A DNA stretch of 64,000 nucleotides from a virus. The stretch covers positions 6,827 through 70,826 of the IMG/VR virus record IMGVR_UViG_3300020122_000057, one strand, 5' to 3'. The position numbers and the translations under genes are program-made. This document shows positions 9,784 to 47,273 of this stretch, piece after piece. Numbering within the stretch: position 1 is the stretch's first letter; the number at the start of each line of letters is the position of its first letter. The notes below the pieces were generated by a model, which saw only the letters and a list, made by a program, of their open reading frames with translations, was not told the DNA's origin and did not search any database.

Positions 9784-12096
9784 ATGCCAGATTATAATAC
9801 TGGAAATGCGACTCAGACCTTCCAAGGCACCGCAAATACCAGCGAAAACCTACCGCCTACGCCTAAAGAGGGCGTGGACCCGTATCAGGATAAAGCAGCA
9901 ATAAGCAAGCGGATTGATTTCTTCACGCAACGGGATCGTTTTACCCGCTGGATGTTCGAACGGGAATGGTTTCGTAACGTACTCTTCTACATCGGGAAAC
10001 AATGGATTATTTATTCCGTAACAAACCGTAGATGGCGGCCTCGTTCTCTGCCGAATTGGTTCCCACAACCAGTTACGAATAAATTCGCGGAGAAAATGAA
10101 TGACATTATATCAGCGCTTTCGCAAGGTAGAGTTCCTATTACCTATAATCCTGCTACTGATGACCCTGCTGATATTGCCACTGCCGAGGTAGGGGAGAAG
10201 TTGCGCGAAGTTCTCTACGAAGAAGCGAAAATTGATGACCATGAAATGTTGCTTGCTGCGTGGGTAGTATTGACTGGAAATGGTTTCGTTCATACCTATT
10301 ACGATTACGACGATTCTTACGGATCAAAGTTCATCCAATCGTGGCAATGTCCGCAGTGTGGAGCGGTTTCTCGCCCAGCGGATATTCTAGACACTAATGG
10401 AAAGTGTCCACAGTGCGGAAATGGCGATTTGATGCCAGCGCAGAACTCTGATGGAACGCCTGTGGGAGAAGATTTACCCGTTGGCCGTCTACATGCCGAT
10501 ATTCTCTCCCCATTCGAAGTTCGTATCGACCCCACAATCCCCGACATGGAGCATCAACGACGTGCAATTCGCATTCGAACATATGATTTAGAGTTCGCAC
10601 GTACCTATTGGGGCGGTAAGCCGGGTGTGGATGGGCAACCGATTAGCAAGGATGAGATTGTAGCCGATAAAGAGAGTTCTATTGGACAATTTTATCTTGA
10701 TGCCCTTAGCTATATTACAGGCTCATTCGGCGCTGGTGGAGGTTTCATTGCTGGTTCTGGCTCTGCGTTTCGTCTCCCCCGCGTTACGGCGTATGAATTC
10801 TACGAATTACCCTCAGATGATTTCCCCGAAGGACTCCACGCAGTCCGTCTTGGCCACGGAGAGAAAATGGTCGTACTCGCAGAGCCTCTCCCGGATAAAT
10901 ATGGAGCAGGACCCCTAAAAGGCCAGCCATATATTCCCATAGTTCACTTCGGCGGCGACGTAGTTCCGGGACGTTTCTGGAGAAAGACCCGCGCGGACGA
11001 TATCATCTCACCGCAGATTTTCCGCAACCTCGTAGAGAGTGCCCTTAAACTCACCGCACAGCGTATGGGAAACCCAATTTGGCTTAATCCAAAGGGAAGT
11101 GGATTGAGCAACGTAACCGGAGAGCCGGGTGGATTCTACGATTACAATCCAATTAGCGTCGGTGGTACCTCTTTTGCCAAACCCGAACGTGTTCCGGGAG
11201 AAGTATCCAACATCCAGCCCTTCCTGATCCTAATGAAGGAAATTGACGATGAAATTGACCGTGTTGTTGGTACTTTCTTTCTTACTGGTGGCACAACGCC
11301 TCCGGGAGTCACTGCGGCGTCAGCCTTAAGTTATCTTGGCGAGCGTGCCGAGCGCTCAATGTCCCCATTGAAACGCGAATGGGCCAAGGGATGGAAGAAT
11401 TGGGAAATTCAGGCGATGGAAATCGCCCGTGCTCATATGGATGAGCAGAGGGTGCGTATCATCGCAGGCAAAAACCGCCGCTGGGAAGTCCAGAAGTTTA
11501 TGGCGAATGATTTGATGGGTGGGGTTAACCTATCCATTGACTATAACGGCCTATTCCGCAAATCCGCAGCTACGAAACGCGCTGATATTGAACTATTGAC
11601 GCAGCTTGGGTACATAAATCCGATGGAACCCGAGGTTCAATGGCAGGTTCTTACCGTATTTGGGGAAACCGCGCTCAAAGGTTCTACCGATTTGGACGTT
11701 AAGGAAGCGGTTAAGGAAGCGGATGATTTTATCACGAAGGGTGTACCTCCGCAGATCGTTCCTCTTGTTCAAAACAGCGCCGTTCACATCATGCAGCACA
11801 AAGATTTCGCCAAAACTGACGAATTTAAAGAAATGCCGCAAGCCATGCAGCAATTCTGGTTCAAACACATCGAACTTCACTACATCGACATGCTTTCCAT
11901 GCAAGCTGCCATGACTCCTCCGGGTCAAGGTCCGGGAGAAGGCGCTCCTCCTCCGGGTGCTGGAGGTACACCGCCAAAAGGTGGTAAAGCTGGCCAGCAA
12001 AAAGGTGAACCCGGTCCAATAGCCAAGGGTGAAGCTCGCGCTAACGGAGAAACTCGCTCCAATTTACAGGAAGCGCCGCAGATAAAGGGGCAATAA
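9784..12096 (+). CDS. portal protein
   Basis: 770 aa after the terminase; FYIGKQW, LSPFEV.IDP, PPGVTAASAL; zinc-ribbon insertion. Confidence 0.85.
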   Translation: MPDYNTGNATQTFQGTANTSENLPPTPKEGVDPYQDKAAISKRIDFFTQRDRFTRWMFEREWFRNVLFYIGKQWIIYSVTNRRWRPRSLPNWFPQPVTNKFAEKMNDIISALSQGRVPITYNPATDDPADIATAEVGEKLREVLYEEAKIDDHEMLLAAWVVLTGNGFVHTYYDYDDSYGSKFIQSWQCPQCGAVSRPADILDTNGKCPQCGNGDLMPAQNSDGTPVGEDLPVGRLHADILSPFEVRIDPTIPDMEHQRRAIRIRTYDLEFARTYWGGKPGVDGQPISKDEIVADKESSIGQFYLDALSYITGSFGAGGGFIAGSGSAFRLPRVTAYEFYELPSDDFPEGLHAVRLGHGEKMVVLAEPLPDKYGAGPLKGQPYIPIVHFGGDVVPGRFWRKTRADDIISPQIFRNLVESALKLTAQRMGNPIWLNPKGSGLSNVTGEPGGFYDYNPISVGGTSFAKPERVPGEVSNIQPFLILMKEIDDEIDRVVGTFFLTGGTTPPGVTAASALSYLGERAERSMSPLKREWAKGWKNWEIQAMEIARAHMDEQRVRIIAGKNRRWEVQKFMANDLMGGVNLSIDYNGLFRKSAATKRADIELLTQLGYINPMEPEVQWQVLTVFGETALKGSTDLDVKEAVKEADDFITKGVPPQIVPLVQNSAVHIMQHKDFAKTDEFKEMPQAMQQFWFKHIELHYIDMLSMQAAMTPPGQGPGEGAPPPGAGGTPPKGGKAGQQKGEPGPIAKGEARANGETRSNLQEAPQIKGQ

Positions 12097-44514: not shown

Positions 44515-44587
44515 TGGTAACGGAGGTGAGAGTTGAACTCACGGAGGTCTGCTTATGAGACAGACTTGAATACCCATTCTCCCCGTT
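44515..44587 (-). tRNA. tRNA(CAT), Met or Ile2, non-canonical fold
   Basis: GTCTGT-CTCATAA-GCAGAC; 1-nt connector, 4-nt D-loop; CCA. Confidence 0.8.
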
Positions 44588-44839: not shown

Positions 44840-44915
44840 TGGTAGTGGTGGATGGATTCGAACCATCTGCCTTTCCCTTATCGGGGGAACGCGCATCCAC
44901 ATGGGCCTCACCACT
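44840..44915 (-). tRNA. tRNA-Ile(GAT), C33
   Basis: TTCCC-CCGATAA-GGGAA; CCA. Confidence 0.85.
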
Positions 44916-44917
44916 AT

Positions 44918-45012
44918 TGGTACTCGCCGTAGGAGTTGAACCTACTCGGCACCGCTAATCGGGCGGCAATCCAAGGTTTATAAAACCTCGCTGCATACCG
45001 ATGCTGACGAGT
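44918..45012 (-). tRNA. tRNA-Ile(TAT) with a second anticodon-like arm (GAT)
   Basis: GAGGT-TTTATAA-ACCTT plus GCCGC-CCGATTA-GCGGT in the variable position; CCA. Confidence 0.8.
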
Positions 45013-45459: not shown

Positions 45460-46113
45460 TTACTTCTGCGATTGTACCAAATTATCGTCGTCTTCGTCAA
45501 GCGCTTCTTGTTTCTGTTGCGCCGTAAATCCCTGATAATCGCCAGTGCTCTTATACGACGTAAGGGTTGCGCTCAGTGAACGAGTCGAACTTGCAGTTCC
45601 CGCAGCCGACGTTGCAAAACTCATGGCGTTTGATGCCGCGATATTATACTGTGCCGCCGTCAACACCGCATCCTGATTCGCACCAAGGAAGATAAATTCC
45701 CACTTGTACTTATCGTGCTGCTCGGTAATGAGTTTCTTTACCGTAGCCGCGCTGTGTTCCTTAGAAGCGTTCTCGTAACCATCGGTGATAATCACGATAG
45801 CAACCTTGTTTGGTCGCTGACTCTCATCGCGCTTCGCCAGTTCCGCGCCGATATCGAGAATTGTCTTCCCAATGGCATCGTGCAATGCCGTCGATCCGCG
45901 AGGATGAATCGTGTGCTTTGGTGCATCCTTAATGTTGGTACGGAATACTGGTTCGTACACGTCATCAAATTGGAACAGAGCTAACTCGCACTCCTGCGGG
46001 TCTTGTTTCTGCTTGTTGATGAACTCGTCCAGTGCCGTCTGCATATTATTCAAGCAGCTTCCAATGGAACCAGAACGATCCAAAACTAACCCAATTAATG
46101 TAGCATCCTTCAC
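45460..46113 (-). CDS. von Willebrand factor A domain protein
   Basis: MIDAS LDRSGS, GSTALHDAIG, IITDGYENAS, FIFLGAN. Confidence 0.9.
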   Translation of the reverse strand: MKDATLIGLVLDRSGSIGSCLNNMQTALDEFINKQKQDPQECELALFQFDDVYEPVFRTNIKDAPKHTIHPRGSTALHDAIGKTILDIGAELAKRDESQRPNKVAIVIITDGYENASKEHSAATVKKLITEQHDKYKWEFIFLGANQDAVLTAAQYNIAASNAMSFATSAAGTASSTRSLSATLTSYKSTGDYQGFTAQQKQEALDEDDDNLVQSQK

Positions 46114-46532: not shown

Positions 46533-46901
46533 GTGAACTCGTTTTTCATATTCCAGTATAGCATGGCAGTTAGCGCATAATACATCGCATTTTTCCATCT
46601 CTGCTAATACTGACTTCCAAGAATAATTTCTACTATCCGCCAATCTAAATTTCTTCTCTGACGGAATCCTATGATGAAACTCTAATGCGGTATGGTGTAA
46701 ATCAAAACCACATTTCTTACAGCCCTTAGTAAGTTTTACTTCTCGAATTTTTCCTTGTATCTTATCTCTATATCGCTTATCCCGCAACTTTCTAGTAGTT
46801 CTATTGTACTTATGAAGGCTTTCCTTAAAATTTTTACTAGATAAGTACGCTTGCCCCTTTTCGGACTTAATCCACTTTCTTTGATTCTCAATACGACCCA
46901 T
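46518..46901 (-). CDS. HNH endonuclease
   Basis: CKKCG..ALEFHH..PSEK..EMEKCDVLCANCH. Confidence 0.88.
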   Translation of the reverse strand: MGRIENQRKWIKSEKGQAYLSSKNFKESLHKYNRTTRKLRDKRYRDKIQGKIREVKLTKGCKKCGFDLHHTALEFHHRIPSEKKFRLADSRNYSWKSVLAEMEKCDVLCANCHAILEYEKRVHGVLG

Positions 46902-46905
46902 TTTT

Positions 46906-47160
46906 GGTTAGTTGATAGCCCGGTTTCTGTACTCAATATATGAGTGACAATCATTCATCTAACGCATCCAACCCGATAACCAAATGCCTAGGGCCAGTAG
47001 TTATCCTATTTGGACTTGCTCCCGGCGTGGAGTCATTTAGAGAAATACTCTAACTCTTACCCGTCACATTACTGTGCCTGCAACTTCCACAGCGCCGTTA
47101 CCCTTTGGAGACCGGAACTTCCTCCCCCATCTTCCGATGGCAGCGATTGTCTAACTAACC
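46906..47160 (-). ncRNA. rnpB: RNase P RNA, minimal (~255 nt)
   Basis: Hallmarks GAGGAAGTTCCGGTCTCC, GGAGCAAGTCCAAATAGG, AGATGAATGATTGTC and ACAGAAACCGGGCTATC; P1-P6, P15, P16 and P19 can be paired. Confidence 0.92.
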
Positions 47161-47166
47161 AAATTC

Positions 47167-47273
47167 TGGAGCAGCGAGTGGGACTCGAACCCACATGCAA
47201 CGAGTTTAGGAAACTCGCGCCTAAGAGGAGCCTGTTTAGAAGACAGGTGCCTATTCCATTCAGCCACCGCTGC
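47167..47273 (-). tRNA. tRNA-Arg(TCT) with a second complete anticodon arm (CCT)
   Basis: CCTGT-CTTCTAA-ACAGG then CGAGT-TTCCTAA-ACTCG inside one acceptor/D/T frame; 107 nt. Confidence 0.85.

What the first reader, a model, noticed from the sequence alone, without database searches (positions are those of the whole stretch)
44918..45012. tRNA-Ile(UAU) carrying a second Ile anticodon arm (GAU): a second dual-anticodon tRNA
Seen: anticodon arm GAGGU-UU[UAU]AA-ACCUU (44973-44989) is followed in the variable position by GCCGC-CC[GAU]UA-GCGGU (44951-44967). This is a 5-bp stem with a 7-nt loop whose centre is the other Ile anticodon, and it has the same odd CC at 32-33 as the adjacent tRNA-Ile(GAU). 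Its CCGAU is also complementary to AUCGG in the D-arm. Established: bacterial IleRS recognises GAU or lysidine-modified CAU, and UAU-type tRNA-Ile is rare. Inference: the extra arm could supply synthetase identity while UAU decodes AUA without TilS, separating charging from decoding. Two independent same-amino-acid cases in one array make chance unlikely.
Basis: partly seen in the sequence, partly recalled or inferred. Interest (0 to 1): 0.9.

Follow-up and report, generated by a model that had tools for sequence, protein, structure and literature searches.

The report
Phage isoleucine tRNA with two arms
This soil phage carries a real 95-base tRNA whose normal anticodon arm reads the rare isoleucine codon AUA and whose extra arm displays the common isoleucine anticodon GAU, a design that recurs in many unrelated phages and may be how the host charging enzyme is made to accept it.

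Summary
The 95-nt gene (44918-45012, minus strand) has a 7-bp acceptor stem, a small D arm, a UAU anticodon arm, a second 5-bp/7-nt hairpin with GAU at its centre, a T arm, A73 and an encoded CCA. It is not a private oddity or an assembly error. Identical sequence lies in three other soil runs.

It belongs to a widespread class of phage and prophage tRNAs with a UAU arm and a variable-arm loop reading C-N-G-A-U-(U/A)-A. In a search that did not ask for GAU, 6 of 9 long-armed UAU tRNAs had it (shuffle rate 0.7%). A related phage, found through its DNA polymerase, carries a homolog with a different stem and the same GAU. Seven cultured Vibrio, Pectobacterium and Klebsiella phages have it too. 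The arm's stem covaries and A73 is invariant.

Its mechanism, that the arm supplies IleRS identity, fits which positions are conserved but is untested and has real objections. I put it near 0.35.

This scan found the same class earlier on other DNA, in several earlier notes. I found no published description in six literature searches.

The parts
44918..45012 (-). Whole tRNA gene, 95 nt, including encoded CCA (44918-44920) and discriminator A73 (44921)
   Evidence: ARAGORN tRNA-Ile(tat); segment map; identical contigs in 3 other runs
45006..45012 (-). Acceptor stem, 5' strand (pairs with 44922-44928; 7 of 7 pairs, one G-U)
   Evidence: this helix covaries across the family
44922..44928 (-). Acceptor stem, 3' strand
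44993..45004 (-). Reduced D arm: 4-bp stem and 4-nt loop CGGU. The same type occurs in a family of CAU tRNAs and in the homologs L131/L144 and L021.
44973..44989 (-). Decoding arm: 5-bp stem and loop UUUAUAA, with anticodon UAU at 44980-44982 (U33 and A37 present)
   Evidence: base-pair probability 0.90-1.00 in the ensemble
44968..44972 (-). 5' linker GGAUU (its last U can pair with G at 44950, extending the extra stem to 6 bp)
44951..44967 (-). Extra (variable-position) arm: 5-bp stem and loop CCGAUUA, with GAU at 44958-44960
   Evidence: the loop motif and covarying stem are conserved in the family
44946..44950 (-). 3' linker GCCGA, the same five letters as in L131/L144 and L021. The family usually has 5 nt here (34 of 48).
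44929..44945 (-). T arm: 5-bp stem and loop UUCAACU
44840..44915 (-). Context: adjacent canonical tRNA-Ile(GAU) with loop CCGAUAA (C33)
44515..44587 (-). Context: paralogous tRNA(CAU) with the same small D arm and a short variable loop, the only CAU gene in the array

Best explanation
SHOWN. This is a genuine tRNA gene in a 33-gene, same-strand tRNA array of a complete 70.8-kb soil phage. It belongs to a conserved class found in many unrelated phages and prophage-like contigs. The class has a UAU anticodon arm with normal decoding features, followed by a short linker. Next comes a 3-6-bp hairpin whose 7-nt loop reads C-N-G-A-U-(U/A)-A, then a linker of about 5 nt, a T arm and an invariant A73. 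The phage uses AUA for 135 of 756 isoleucine codons and encodes neither TilS nor an IleRS-type enzyme.

INFERRED, about 0.65. The UAU arm decodes AUA and the tRNA carries isoleucine.

INFERRED, about 0.35; this is the figure I give as confidence. The extra loop is a protein-recognition handle that copies the anticodon-loop determinants of tRNA-Ile(GAU). Host IleRS discriminates strongly against U34. With the handle it can dock on the GAU loop while the UAU loop stays free for the ribosome. This would give AUA decoding without lysidine or TilS.

A possible geometry, which is inference only. Both hairpins leave the same junction. A 4-5-bp stem plus a 2-nt linker reaches about as far as the 5-bp anticodon stem. 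The unusually long 3' linker would let the arm lie beside the anticodon arm instead of projecting away as in Leu, Ser and Tyr tRNAs.
For: The gene looks real. It has 7 of 7 acceptor pairs, 5 of 5 T pairs and an encoded CCA like every other gene in the array. Identical sequence occurs in 3 other runs.

The class is real. A loop-based pattern in viral contigs gave 117 stretches. Of these, 82 are tRNA-like and collapse to 42 distinct sequences, and 41 of 42 have their best hairpin centred on GAU. At positions the pattern left free, the 32-equivalent is C in 38 of 41, the 37-equivalent is U in 30 and A in 11 of 41, and the discriminator is A in 41 of 41.

Tests that did not ask for GAU agree. The genome-contig scan gave 6 of 9. 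L021 is a relative reached through its polymerase (68% identity), and its homolog has stem GGAG/CUCC and loop CAGAUUA. All 7 cultured-phage BLAST hits that I fetched have loop CAGAUAA with covarying stems.

The stem covaries. The four inner pairs are paired in 56, 56, 55 and 49 of 56 sequences, with 12, 33, 9 and 10 double changes. The whole structure is 93.4% paired against 58.5% when shuffled.

Within the small-D-arm body type, 3 of 3 distinct UAU members carry the arm and 0 of 6 distinct CAU members do.

Company points to translation. ARAGORN of 42 members tRNA-Ile(tat). Several sit in small sets with Arg(UCU), Leu(UAA) and Lys(UUU), the usual rare-codon helpers.

The phage needs the decoder and cannot modify or charge it alone. 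AUA usage is, and the phage has no PF01171 or PF00133 match. E. coli IleRS handles UAU at 1.1% of LAU (PMC3575796).

There is a precedent for a class Ia synthetase reading bases at a variable-arm tip. It is archaeal LeuRS, as quoted in PMC3333845.
Against: No charging, modification or expression data exist for any member. No RNA run was listed.

The 37-equivalent is U in this gene and in 30 of 41 members. It therefore cannot carry t6A, which is a strong determinant for bacterial IleRS (PMC9976931).

From general structural knowledge, not tested here, class I synthetases approach from the D-loop side and a variable arm normally points away. The handle would need an unusual arm orientation or an alternative fold.

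Three of the 9 long-armed UAU tRNAs in the GAU-free scan lack the GAU loop.

The sister case in this array cannot be an identity aid, on my recalled knowledge that ArgRS reads C35 and U36, which UCU already has. One explanation for both cases would have to be different.

An earlier internal check of the same reading on other DNA priced it at 13 in 100. I could not see why.
Confidence: 0.35

Rival explanations
1. The tRNA is an ordinary AUA decoder charged with isoleucine through its own UAU loop, t6A37 and A73, perhaps by host IleRS forms that tolerate U34. The conserved GAU loop would then serve another conserved partner or step. Candidates are a modification enzyme for U34, discrimination against AUG on the ribosome, processing, or stability.
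For: The UAU loop has every decoding feature. Some bacteria charge UAU directly (PMC3575796 discussion). U at the 37-equivalent fits poorly with IleRS mimicry. The Arg case suggests a role other than identity.
Against: No other known factor reads G34-A35-U36-A38 specifically; this is recalled knowledge, not tested. The class spans very different phages, including Drexlerviridae, Autographiviridae, Schitoviridae, Ounavirinae and this soil phage. A phage-encoded partner is therefore unlikely.
Confidence: 0.25
2. The extra arm is a decoy. It offers a copy of the tRNA-Ile(GAU) anticodon loop to a host tRNA-cutting defence or toxin, or to another factor that binds tRNA-Ile. This would protect real tRNA-Ile, and the molecule may or may not also translate.
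For: The array looks like a replacement tRNA pool with altered loops, for example C33 in Ile(GAU) here and in L021. The Arg case also shows a complete sibling anticodon loop. Free variation at position 33 suits a mimic that is bound but not used for decoding.
Against: I know of no anticodon nuclease aimed at tRNA-Ile(GAU); this is recalled, not searched in depth. A decoy would not need a perfect UAU decoding arm, A73 and CCA, nor the company of rare-codon tRNAs.
Confidence: 0.12
3. The long arm turns the molecule into a class II-like substrate for LeuRS, as in nematode nev-tRNA-Ile(UAU), so that AUA is read as leucine.
For: A73 is invariant. nev-tRNAs with UAU are leucylated and not isoleucylated (PMC3333845 passages).
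Against: LeuRS recognition would not demand GAU in the loop, yet GAU is conserved. The D arms are very diverse, and here the D loop has 4 nt. The 3' linker of about 5 nt differs from the 2 nt I read after the arm in this array's own Ser(GCU) and Leu(UAG) genes.
Confidence: 0.08
4. True dual decoding: either hairpin can take the anticodon position, so one tRNA reads AUA with UAU and AUU/AUC with GAU.
For: Arm plus linker looks like a 22-nt module present twice in this gene. With the Arg case, each pair of loops would cover a whole codon set.
Against: Position 33 of the extra loop is A, C, G or U, and position 37 is mostly U. Stems are usually only 4 bp (28 of 48). All of this is poor for decoding. 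Twelve of 42 loci, and this window, also carry a separate tRNA-Ile(GAU).
Confidence: 0.04
5. Chance insertion or a decaying pseudogene.
For: No close relative with the same sequence was found in viral contigs or metagenome contigs using patterns built on this gene's own D arm. Rfam's tRNA model does not give the top hit.
Against: Family-wide conservation and covariation. Intact stems and CCA.
Confidence: 0.02

Closest known systems
TilS-independent tRNA-Ile2(UAU) of Mycoplasma mobile (PMC3575796; abstract and passages read)
   Same: UAU anticodon for AUA; no lysidine needed; the central problem is how IleRS accepts U34.
   Different: There the solution lies in the enzyme (Arg865 in IleRS), and the tRNA is an ordinary class I cloverleaf. 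Here the tRNA carries an extra GAU-loop arm, the phage has no IleRS, and the host is unknown.
Class II tRNAs (bacterial Leu, Ser, Tyr; tRNA-Sec) with a long variable arm
   Same: A base-paired arm lies between the anticodon and T arms. A synthetase can read that arm: SerRS reads its orientation, and archaeal LeuRS reads tip bases, as quoted in PMC7609411 and PMC3333845.
   Different: The loop is 7 nt with a fixed anticodon-like sequence, not a 3-4-nt cap. The 3' linker is about 5 nt, against the 2 nt I read in this array's Ser(GCU) and Leu(UAG). The anticodon is not Leu, Ser or Tyr. The Rfam Sec hit is below threshold and there is no UCA anticodon.
Nematode nev-tRNA-Ile(UAU) (PMC3333845; passages read)
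   Same: A V-arm tRNA with anticodon UAU and A73. Amino-acid identity is set by the arm and not by the anticodon.
   Different: Those are eukaryotic, with a Leu-type arm, charged by LeuRS. Here the arm copies the Ile anticodon loop.
allo-tRNA(UAU) group (Mukai et al., PMC5389517; passages read)
   Same: Long-armed bacterial or phage tRNAs from soil and Acidobacteria-type sources in which UAU is a predominant anticodon.
   Different: allo-tRNAs have an 8/4 or 9/3 acceptor/T composition, G73 or U73, and a Sec-like long D stem. This gene is 7/5 with A73 and a 4-bp D stem.
Earlier reports of this scan on other DNA (e1-126203, e1-121598, e1-122484, e1-128115, e1-1035274)
   Same: The same architecture (UAU arm plus GAU-loop arm) in phage tRNA-Ile genes, including T1-like coliphages.
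   Different: Those are internal notes, not publications. This member is 95 nt with a small D arm shared with a CAU tRNA family, a 5-6-bp extra stem and symmetric 4-5-nt linkers, and it sits in a soil-phage array of 33 tRNAs.

Membership tests
Canonical elongator tRNA (Rfam RF00005) | 7-bp acceptor stem, 5-bp T stem with a T-loop of the UUCRANY type, and a discriminator | tested here: met
   7 of 7 and 5 of 5 pairs, loop UUCAACU, A73 plus CCA
Canonical elongator tRNA (Rfam RF00005) | Score at or above the family's gathering threshold | tested here: not met
   Only the related tRNA-Sec model is listed, at 34.2 bits against 47. One lower overlapping clan match was left out and I did not see it.
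Canonical elongator tRNA (Rfam RF00005) | Anticodon arm of 5 bp with a 7-nt loop, U33 and a purine at 37 | tested here: met
   Loop UUUAUAA on a 5-bp stem
Phage tRNA(UAU) with a GAU-loop variable arm (class defined; no publication found) | Loop YUUAUAA followed by a 3-6-bp hairpin with a 7-nt loop C-N-G-A-U-W-A | tested here: met
   UUUAUAA, then GCCGC-CCGAUUA-GCGGU; the family table is
Phage tRNA(UAU) with a GAU-loop variable arm | 3' linker of 4-8 nt, 7/5 acceptor/T composition, and A73 | tested here: met
   Linker GCCGA (or CCGA if the stem is 6 bp), 7/5, A73
Phage tRNA(UAU) with a GAU-loop variable arm | Homology to other members beyond the motif | tested here: met
   Shares the D arm, the AGC linker, loop CCGAUUA and the GCCGA linker with L131/L144, and the D stem and GCCGA linker with L021
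Class II tRNA (Leu, Ser, Tyr) | Long base-paired variable arm | tested here: met
   27 nt lie between the anticodon and T stems
Class II tRNA (Leu, Ser, Tyr) | Anticodon for Leu, Ser or Tyr, and identity features of those synthetases | tested here: not met
   The anticodon is UAU. G73 for Ser is absent. Charging is not testable here.
allo-tRNA (PMC5389517) | 8/4 or 9/3 acceptor/T composition | tested here: not met
   The gene is 7/5. An eighth pair would be A opposite C.
allo-tRNA (PMC5389517) | G73 or U73 discriminator | tested here: not met
   A73
tRNA-Sec (RF01852) | UCA anticodon, 8/5 (bacterial) branch, and score above threshold | tested here: not met
   UAU, 7/5, 34.2 bits against 47
TilS-independent tRNA-Ile(UAU), M. 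mobile type | UAU anticodon in an Ile tRNA | tested here: met
   (the Ile identity itself is inferred)
TilS-independent tRNA-Ile(UAU), M. mobile type | A cognate IleRS adapted to U34 (a basic residue at the W905-equivalent position) | not testable with these tools
   The host is unknown and the phage has no IleRS-type gene

The most novel reading that the evidence does not exclude
Amino-acid identity and codon reading are physically split between two hairpins of one natural tRNA. Host IleRS docks on the GAU loop of the extra arm, and the ribosome reads AUA with the UAU arm. Phages of many lineages would thereby decode AUA without TilS, in hosts whose IleRS rejects U34. The Arg(UCU)+CCU gene in the same array hints that displaying a sibling anticodon on the variable arm may be a more general phage device.
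Probability: 0.3. Interest if true: 0.9.

Novelty: new variant of a known kind. Interest (0 to 1): 0.7.

Why it matters
If the extra loop is what IleRS reads, this would be a natural tRNA in which the anticodon that fixes the amino acid is not the anticodon that reads the codon. That would be an exception to how isoleucine identity is taught. It would also be a ready-made scaffold for engineering orthogonal or recoded tRNAs.

It would further explain how phages supply AUA decoding independently of the host's essential TilS enzyme.

Even if that mechanism is wrong, the class is conserved, widespread, partly unannotated in deposited phage genomes, and sometimes missed by tRNA finders. Phage tRNA censuses and codon-usage arguments therefore undercount it.

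Members exist in cultured phages of Escherichia, Klebsiella, Vibrio and Pectobacterium, so the question can be tested directly at the bench.

Tried and rejected
1. D-arm/extra-loop pairing (AUCGG with CCGAU). It is present here and used by the minimum-energy fold. It is not conserved in L131 (AUGGG) or L021 (AUCAG). I rejected it as a family feature.

2. The extra loop as a copy of the resident tRNA-Ile(GAU) loop. In 12 loci holding both genes (13 resident GAU genes), the resident loop is mostly CUGAUAA or UUGAUAA while the arm reads CCGAUUA or CUGAUUA. Rejected.

3. Searches built on this gene's own details:
- TTTATAA-N15-CCGATNA...GGTTC gave 8 stretches and 0 tRNAs.
- The small-D-arm plus TTTATAA pattern gave 0 stretches in viral contigs and 2 chance stretches in metagenome contigs.
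These missed the family because relatives differ in D loop, C32 and linker length.

4. Anchoring on the VWA gene inside the array gave 9 loci, none with tRNAs. Anchoring on TerL gave 1 fragment. Anchoring on PolA gave 10 loci, of which only L021 has an array.

5. BLAST of two common family members (L043 type, L041 type) against INPHARED gave no match at E 1e-4. The L210 type did match.

6. The Arg UCU+CCU design. My pattern gave 0 stretches in viral contigs, and none turned up among the fetched loci. L021 has a normal Arg(UCU) plus a separate odd CCU gene.

7. Read laying showed only identical short contigs, so it gave no variants. Parts without cover are not evidence.

8. No RNA holder was listed by the look-up of sequencing runs. 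This is not evidence on expression.

9. Literature: six searches and passages of six papers found no description of a GAU-loop variable arm in tRNA-Ile(UAU). Supplements were closed. Supplementary figures of PMC5389517 (allo-tRNA sequences) might show related genes, and I could not see them.

10. I did not use complex prediction or any structure tool, because they do not take RNA.

Full report
WHAT IS THERE.
The window is most of a complete 70,826-bp virus record with terminal repeats. It encodes a terminase, portal, major head protein and family A DNA polymerase. On the minus strand between 42574 and 48013, ARAGORN finds 32 tRNA genes. Rfam adds a 104-nt one at 47170-47273 and an RNase P RNA at 46900-47162.

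The target is called tRNA-Ile(tat), 95 nt. Its segment map runs as follows:
- a 7-bp acceptor stem, then one A;
- a 4-bp D stem with the 4-nt loop CGGU, then AGC;
- a 5-bp stem with loop UUUAUAA, then GGAUU;
- a 5-bp stem with loop CCGAUUA, then GCCGA;
- a 5-bp T stem with loop UUCAACU;
- the acceptor 3' strand, A73 and CCA.

All genes of the array encode CCA. Rfam's best match is only the tRNA-Sec model, below threshold. The five-arm cloverleaf is 2.3 kcal/mol above the computed minimum, which instead pairs the D strand with the extra loop. Short contigs from three other soil runs cover the whole gene without a single difference. The 22 extra bases are therefore not an assembly artefact.

FIRST SEARCHES FAILED, AND WHY.
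Patterns copied closely from this gene found nothing but chance hits. A polymerase alignment gave 10 related viral loci, and only L021 (68% identity) has a tRNA array.

At the syntenic slot between His and Ile(GAU), L021 has a normal-length tRNA with the same small D arm but anticodon CAU and no extra arm. A D-arm pattern then showed a family of such CAU tRNAs: 6 of 9 stretches. The window's own tRNA(CAU) at 44515-44587 belongs to that family. At that point the extra arm looked private to this phage.

THE LEAD AND MY OWN TEST OF IT.
Earlier notes of this scan said that phage tRNA-Ile genes with UAU and GAU hairpins had been seen on other DNA. I treated that as a lead and tested it with a looser pattern: UAU loop, then YGAUNA, then a T loop. 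It gave 117 stretches in viral contigs.
- 82 are tRNA-like by strict rules and collapse to 42 distinct sequences. 35 are not tRNA-like.
- In 41 of 42 the best hairpin in the variable region has a 7-nt loop centred on GAU.
- At positions the pattern left free, the 32-equivalent is C in 38 of 41 and the 37-equivalent is U in 30 and A in 11.
- The discriminator is A in 41 of 41, and CCA is encoded in 26 of 41.
- The closest member, L131/L144, shares this gene's D arm, the AGC linker, loop CCGAUUA and the GCCGA linker, but has a different stem.

TESTS THAT DID NOT ASK FOR GAU.
(a) A genome-contig scan required only the UAU loop, a long spacing, a T loop and ACCA. Nine are tRNA-like, and 6 of those 9 have a hairpin loop CNGAUNA with N33 = A or G, which my first pattern could not have matched. 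Shuffled arms reach this in 0.68% of trials, giving P about 8e-12.
(b) Reading the gaps of L021's array by eye, I found its own member at 11127-11217. It has the same D stem and GCCGA linker, stem GGAG/CUCC and loop CAGAUUA. Its unusual T loop explains why every finder missed it.
(c) BLAST of one genome-set member against deposited phages gave 17 records, 16 covering at least 80%. All 7 that I fetched have a UAU loop and the loop CAGAUAA on covarying stems: Vibrio WD615, Pylo and 12VC501; Pectobacterium PhiM1 and Arno162; Klebsiella KP13-26 and Opt-79. Three are annotated tRNA-Ile and four are unannotated.
(d) I aligned 56 sequences. The four inner pairs of the extra stem are paired in 56, 56, 55 and 49 of 56, with 12, 33, 9 and 10 double changes. 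That is as good as the acceptor and T helices. Controls: 93.4% of cells paired against 58.5% shuffled and at most 45.7% when slid. Forty-one of the 56 rows come from the GAU-biased pattern. This bears on the loop, not on the stem counts.

WHAT THE CONSERVATION PATTERN SAYS.
C32, G34, A35, U36 and A38 equivalents are conserved. Position 33 is free (U, C, A, G). Position 37 is U or A, with C once. Stems are usually 4 bp (28 of 48). The 5' linker is usually 2-3 nt, and the 3' linker is 5 nt in 34 of 48. In this array's Ser(GCU) and Leu(UAG) I read 2 nt after the arm.

A free position 33 argues against the loop being used on the ribosome. The fixed bases argue for sequence-specific recognition. 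IleRS is the one factor I know of that reads G34, A35, U36 and A38 (recalled; partly in PMC9976931).

E. coli IleRS handles UAU at 1.1% of the lysidine form (PMC3575796). The phage has no TilS-type or IleRS-type gene, yet it uses AUA for 135 of 756 Ile codons in 36 long ORFs. Within the small-D-arm body type, 3 of 3 distinct UAU members have the arm and 0 of 6 distinct CAU members do. Members often accompany Arg(UCU), Leu(UAA) and Lys(UUU) in small tRNA sets.

WHAT SPEAKS AGAINST THE IleRS HANDLE.
- U at the 37-equivalent excludes t6A, a strong bacterial IleRS determinant.
- Variable arms normally point away from where a class I enzyme sits (recalled), so an unusual geometry is needed. I suggest two parallel hairpins of equal reach, but that is inference.
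- Three of 9 long-armed UAU tRNAs lack GAU.
- The Arg(UCU)+CCU gene next door cannot be explained by an identity need.
- An earlier internal check priced the same idea at 13 in 100.
- Nothing here measures charging.
I therefore put the mechanism at about 0.35, Ile-charged AUA decoding at about 0.65, and membership of a real conserved class at about 0.95.

COMPARISON WITH WHAT IS KNOWN.
- It works like a TilS-independent tRNA-Ile(UAU) (M. mobile, PMC3575796), but there the adaptation is in the enzyme.
- It looks like a class II tRNA, but its loop, linkers and anticodon differ.
- It is not an allo-tRNA: it is 7/5 rather than 8/4 or 9/3, and has A73 rather than G73 or U73 (PMC5389517).
- It is not tRNA-Sec.
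- Nematode nev-tRNA-Ile(UAU) shows that an arm can override the anticodon for identity, but through LeuRS (PMC3333845).
- A paper of October 2026 on IleRS still describes bacteria as using the GAU and CAU isoacceptors, with UAU as a rare exception (PMC13752280, passages).
- Six full-text searches found no description of this design. Supplements were closed.

VERDICT.
The gene is a new member, with its own body type, of a conserved and apparently unpublished class that this scan has met before on other DNA. The class is a new variant of the tRNA plan. Interest 0.7.

Noticed in passing
window 47170-47273 (-): A 104-nt tRNA-Arg with a UCU anticodon arm plus a 33-nt insert holding a perfect CCU anticodon-type hairpin (loop UUCCUAA). 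Rfam tRNA scores 48.5 bits; ARAGORN misses it. CCU is the only Arg anticodon family otherwise absent from the array. My pattern for this design found nothing in viral contigs. L021 instead has a normal Arg(UCU) gene.
   Followed up: partly
L021 10957-11048: A tRNA-like gene beside Arg(UCU). It has a 7-bp acceptor stem, T arm, CCA and a CCU anticodon-type hairpin, but no obvious D arm and a long stretch after the hairpin. No finder calls it.
   Followed up: no
window 46900-47162 (-): An RNase P RNA (bacterial class A) inside the tRNA array, scoring 131.8 bits but only 263 nt against a 367-position model. It lies directly beside the Arg double-arm gene.
   Followed up: no
window 44840-44915 (-); L021 12301-12374: The canonical tRNA-Ile(GAU) of both related phages has C, not the near-universal U, at position 33 (loop CCGAUAA). 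Twelve of the 13 other resident Ile(GAU) genes examined have U33.
   Followed up: partly
window 44515-44587 (-); L021 12220-12292; L033, L034/L036, L037, L038: A family of tRNA(CAU) genes with a 4-bp D stem and 4-nt D loop. Several have a mismatched 1-72 pair (C-A or A-C), as in initiator tRNA. ARAGORN and Rfam miss the L021 copy. It is unresolved whether they are Met, initiator or Ile2.
   Followed up: partly
L021 11127-11217: The UAU/GAU-arm tRNA of the related phage has T loop GGCAGCA in place of the usual UUCRANY, so standard finders and my patterns missed it.
   Followed up: partly
L144 1374-1447 and 765-854: In this phage the canonical tRNA-Ile(GAU) has U at position 37 (loop CUGAUUA), and its acceptor stem is identical to that of the UAU/GAU-arm tRNA in the same array.
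   Followed up: no
window 45460-46113 (-): A 217-aa von Willebrand factor A domain protein (PF00092, phrog_7371) is encoded in the middle of the tRNA array. Its relatives in 9 other viral loci have no tRNAs nearby.
   Followed up: partly
L020 (whole locus): The viral contig with the closest polymerase (71% identity) shows no tRNA gene in the 8 kb downstream, where this phage and L021 have their arrays.
   Followed up: no
L043 2190-2575; L084 9639-10003; L057 11705-12060: ARAGORN calls tmRNA genes (two of them permuted) next to the UAU/GAU-arm tRNA and an Arg(UCU) gene in three unrelated viral contigs.
   Followed up: no
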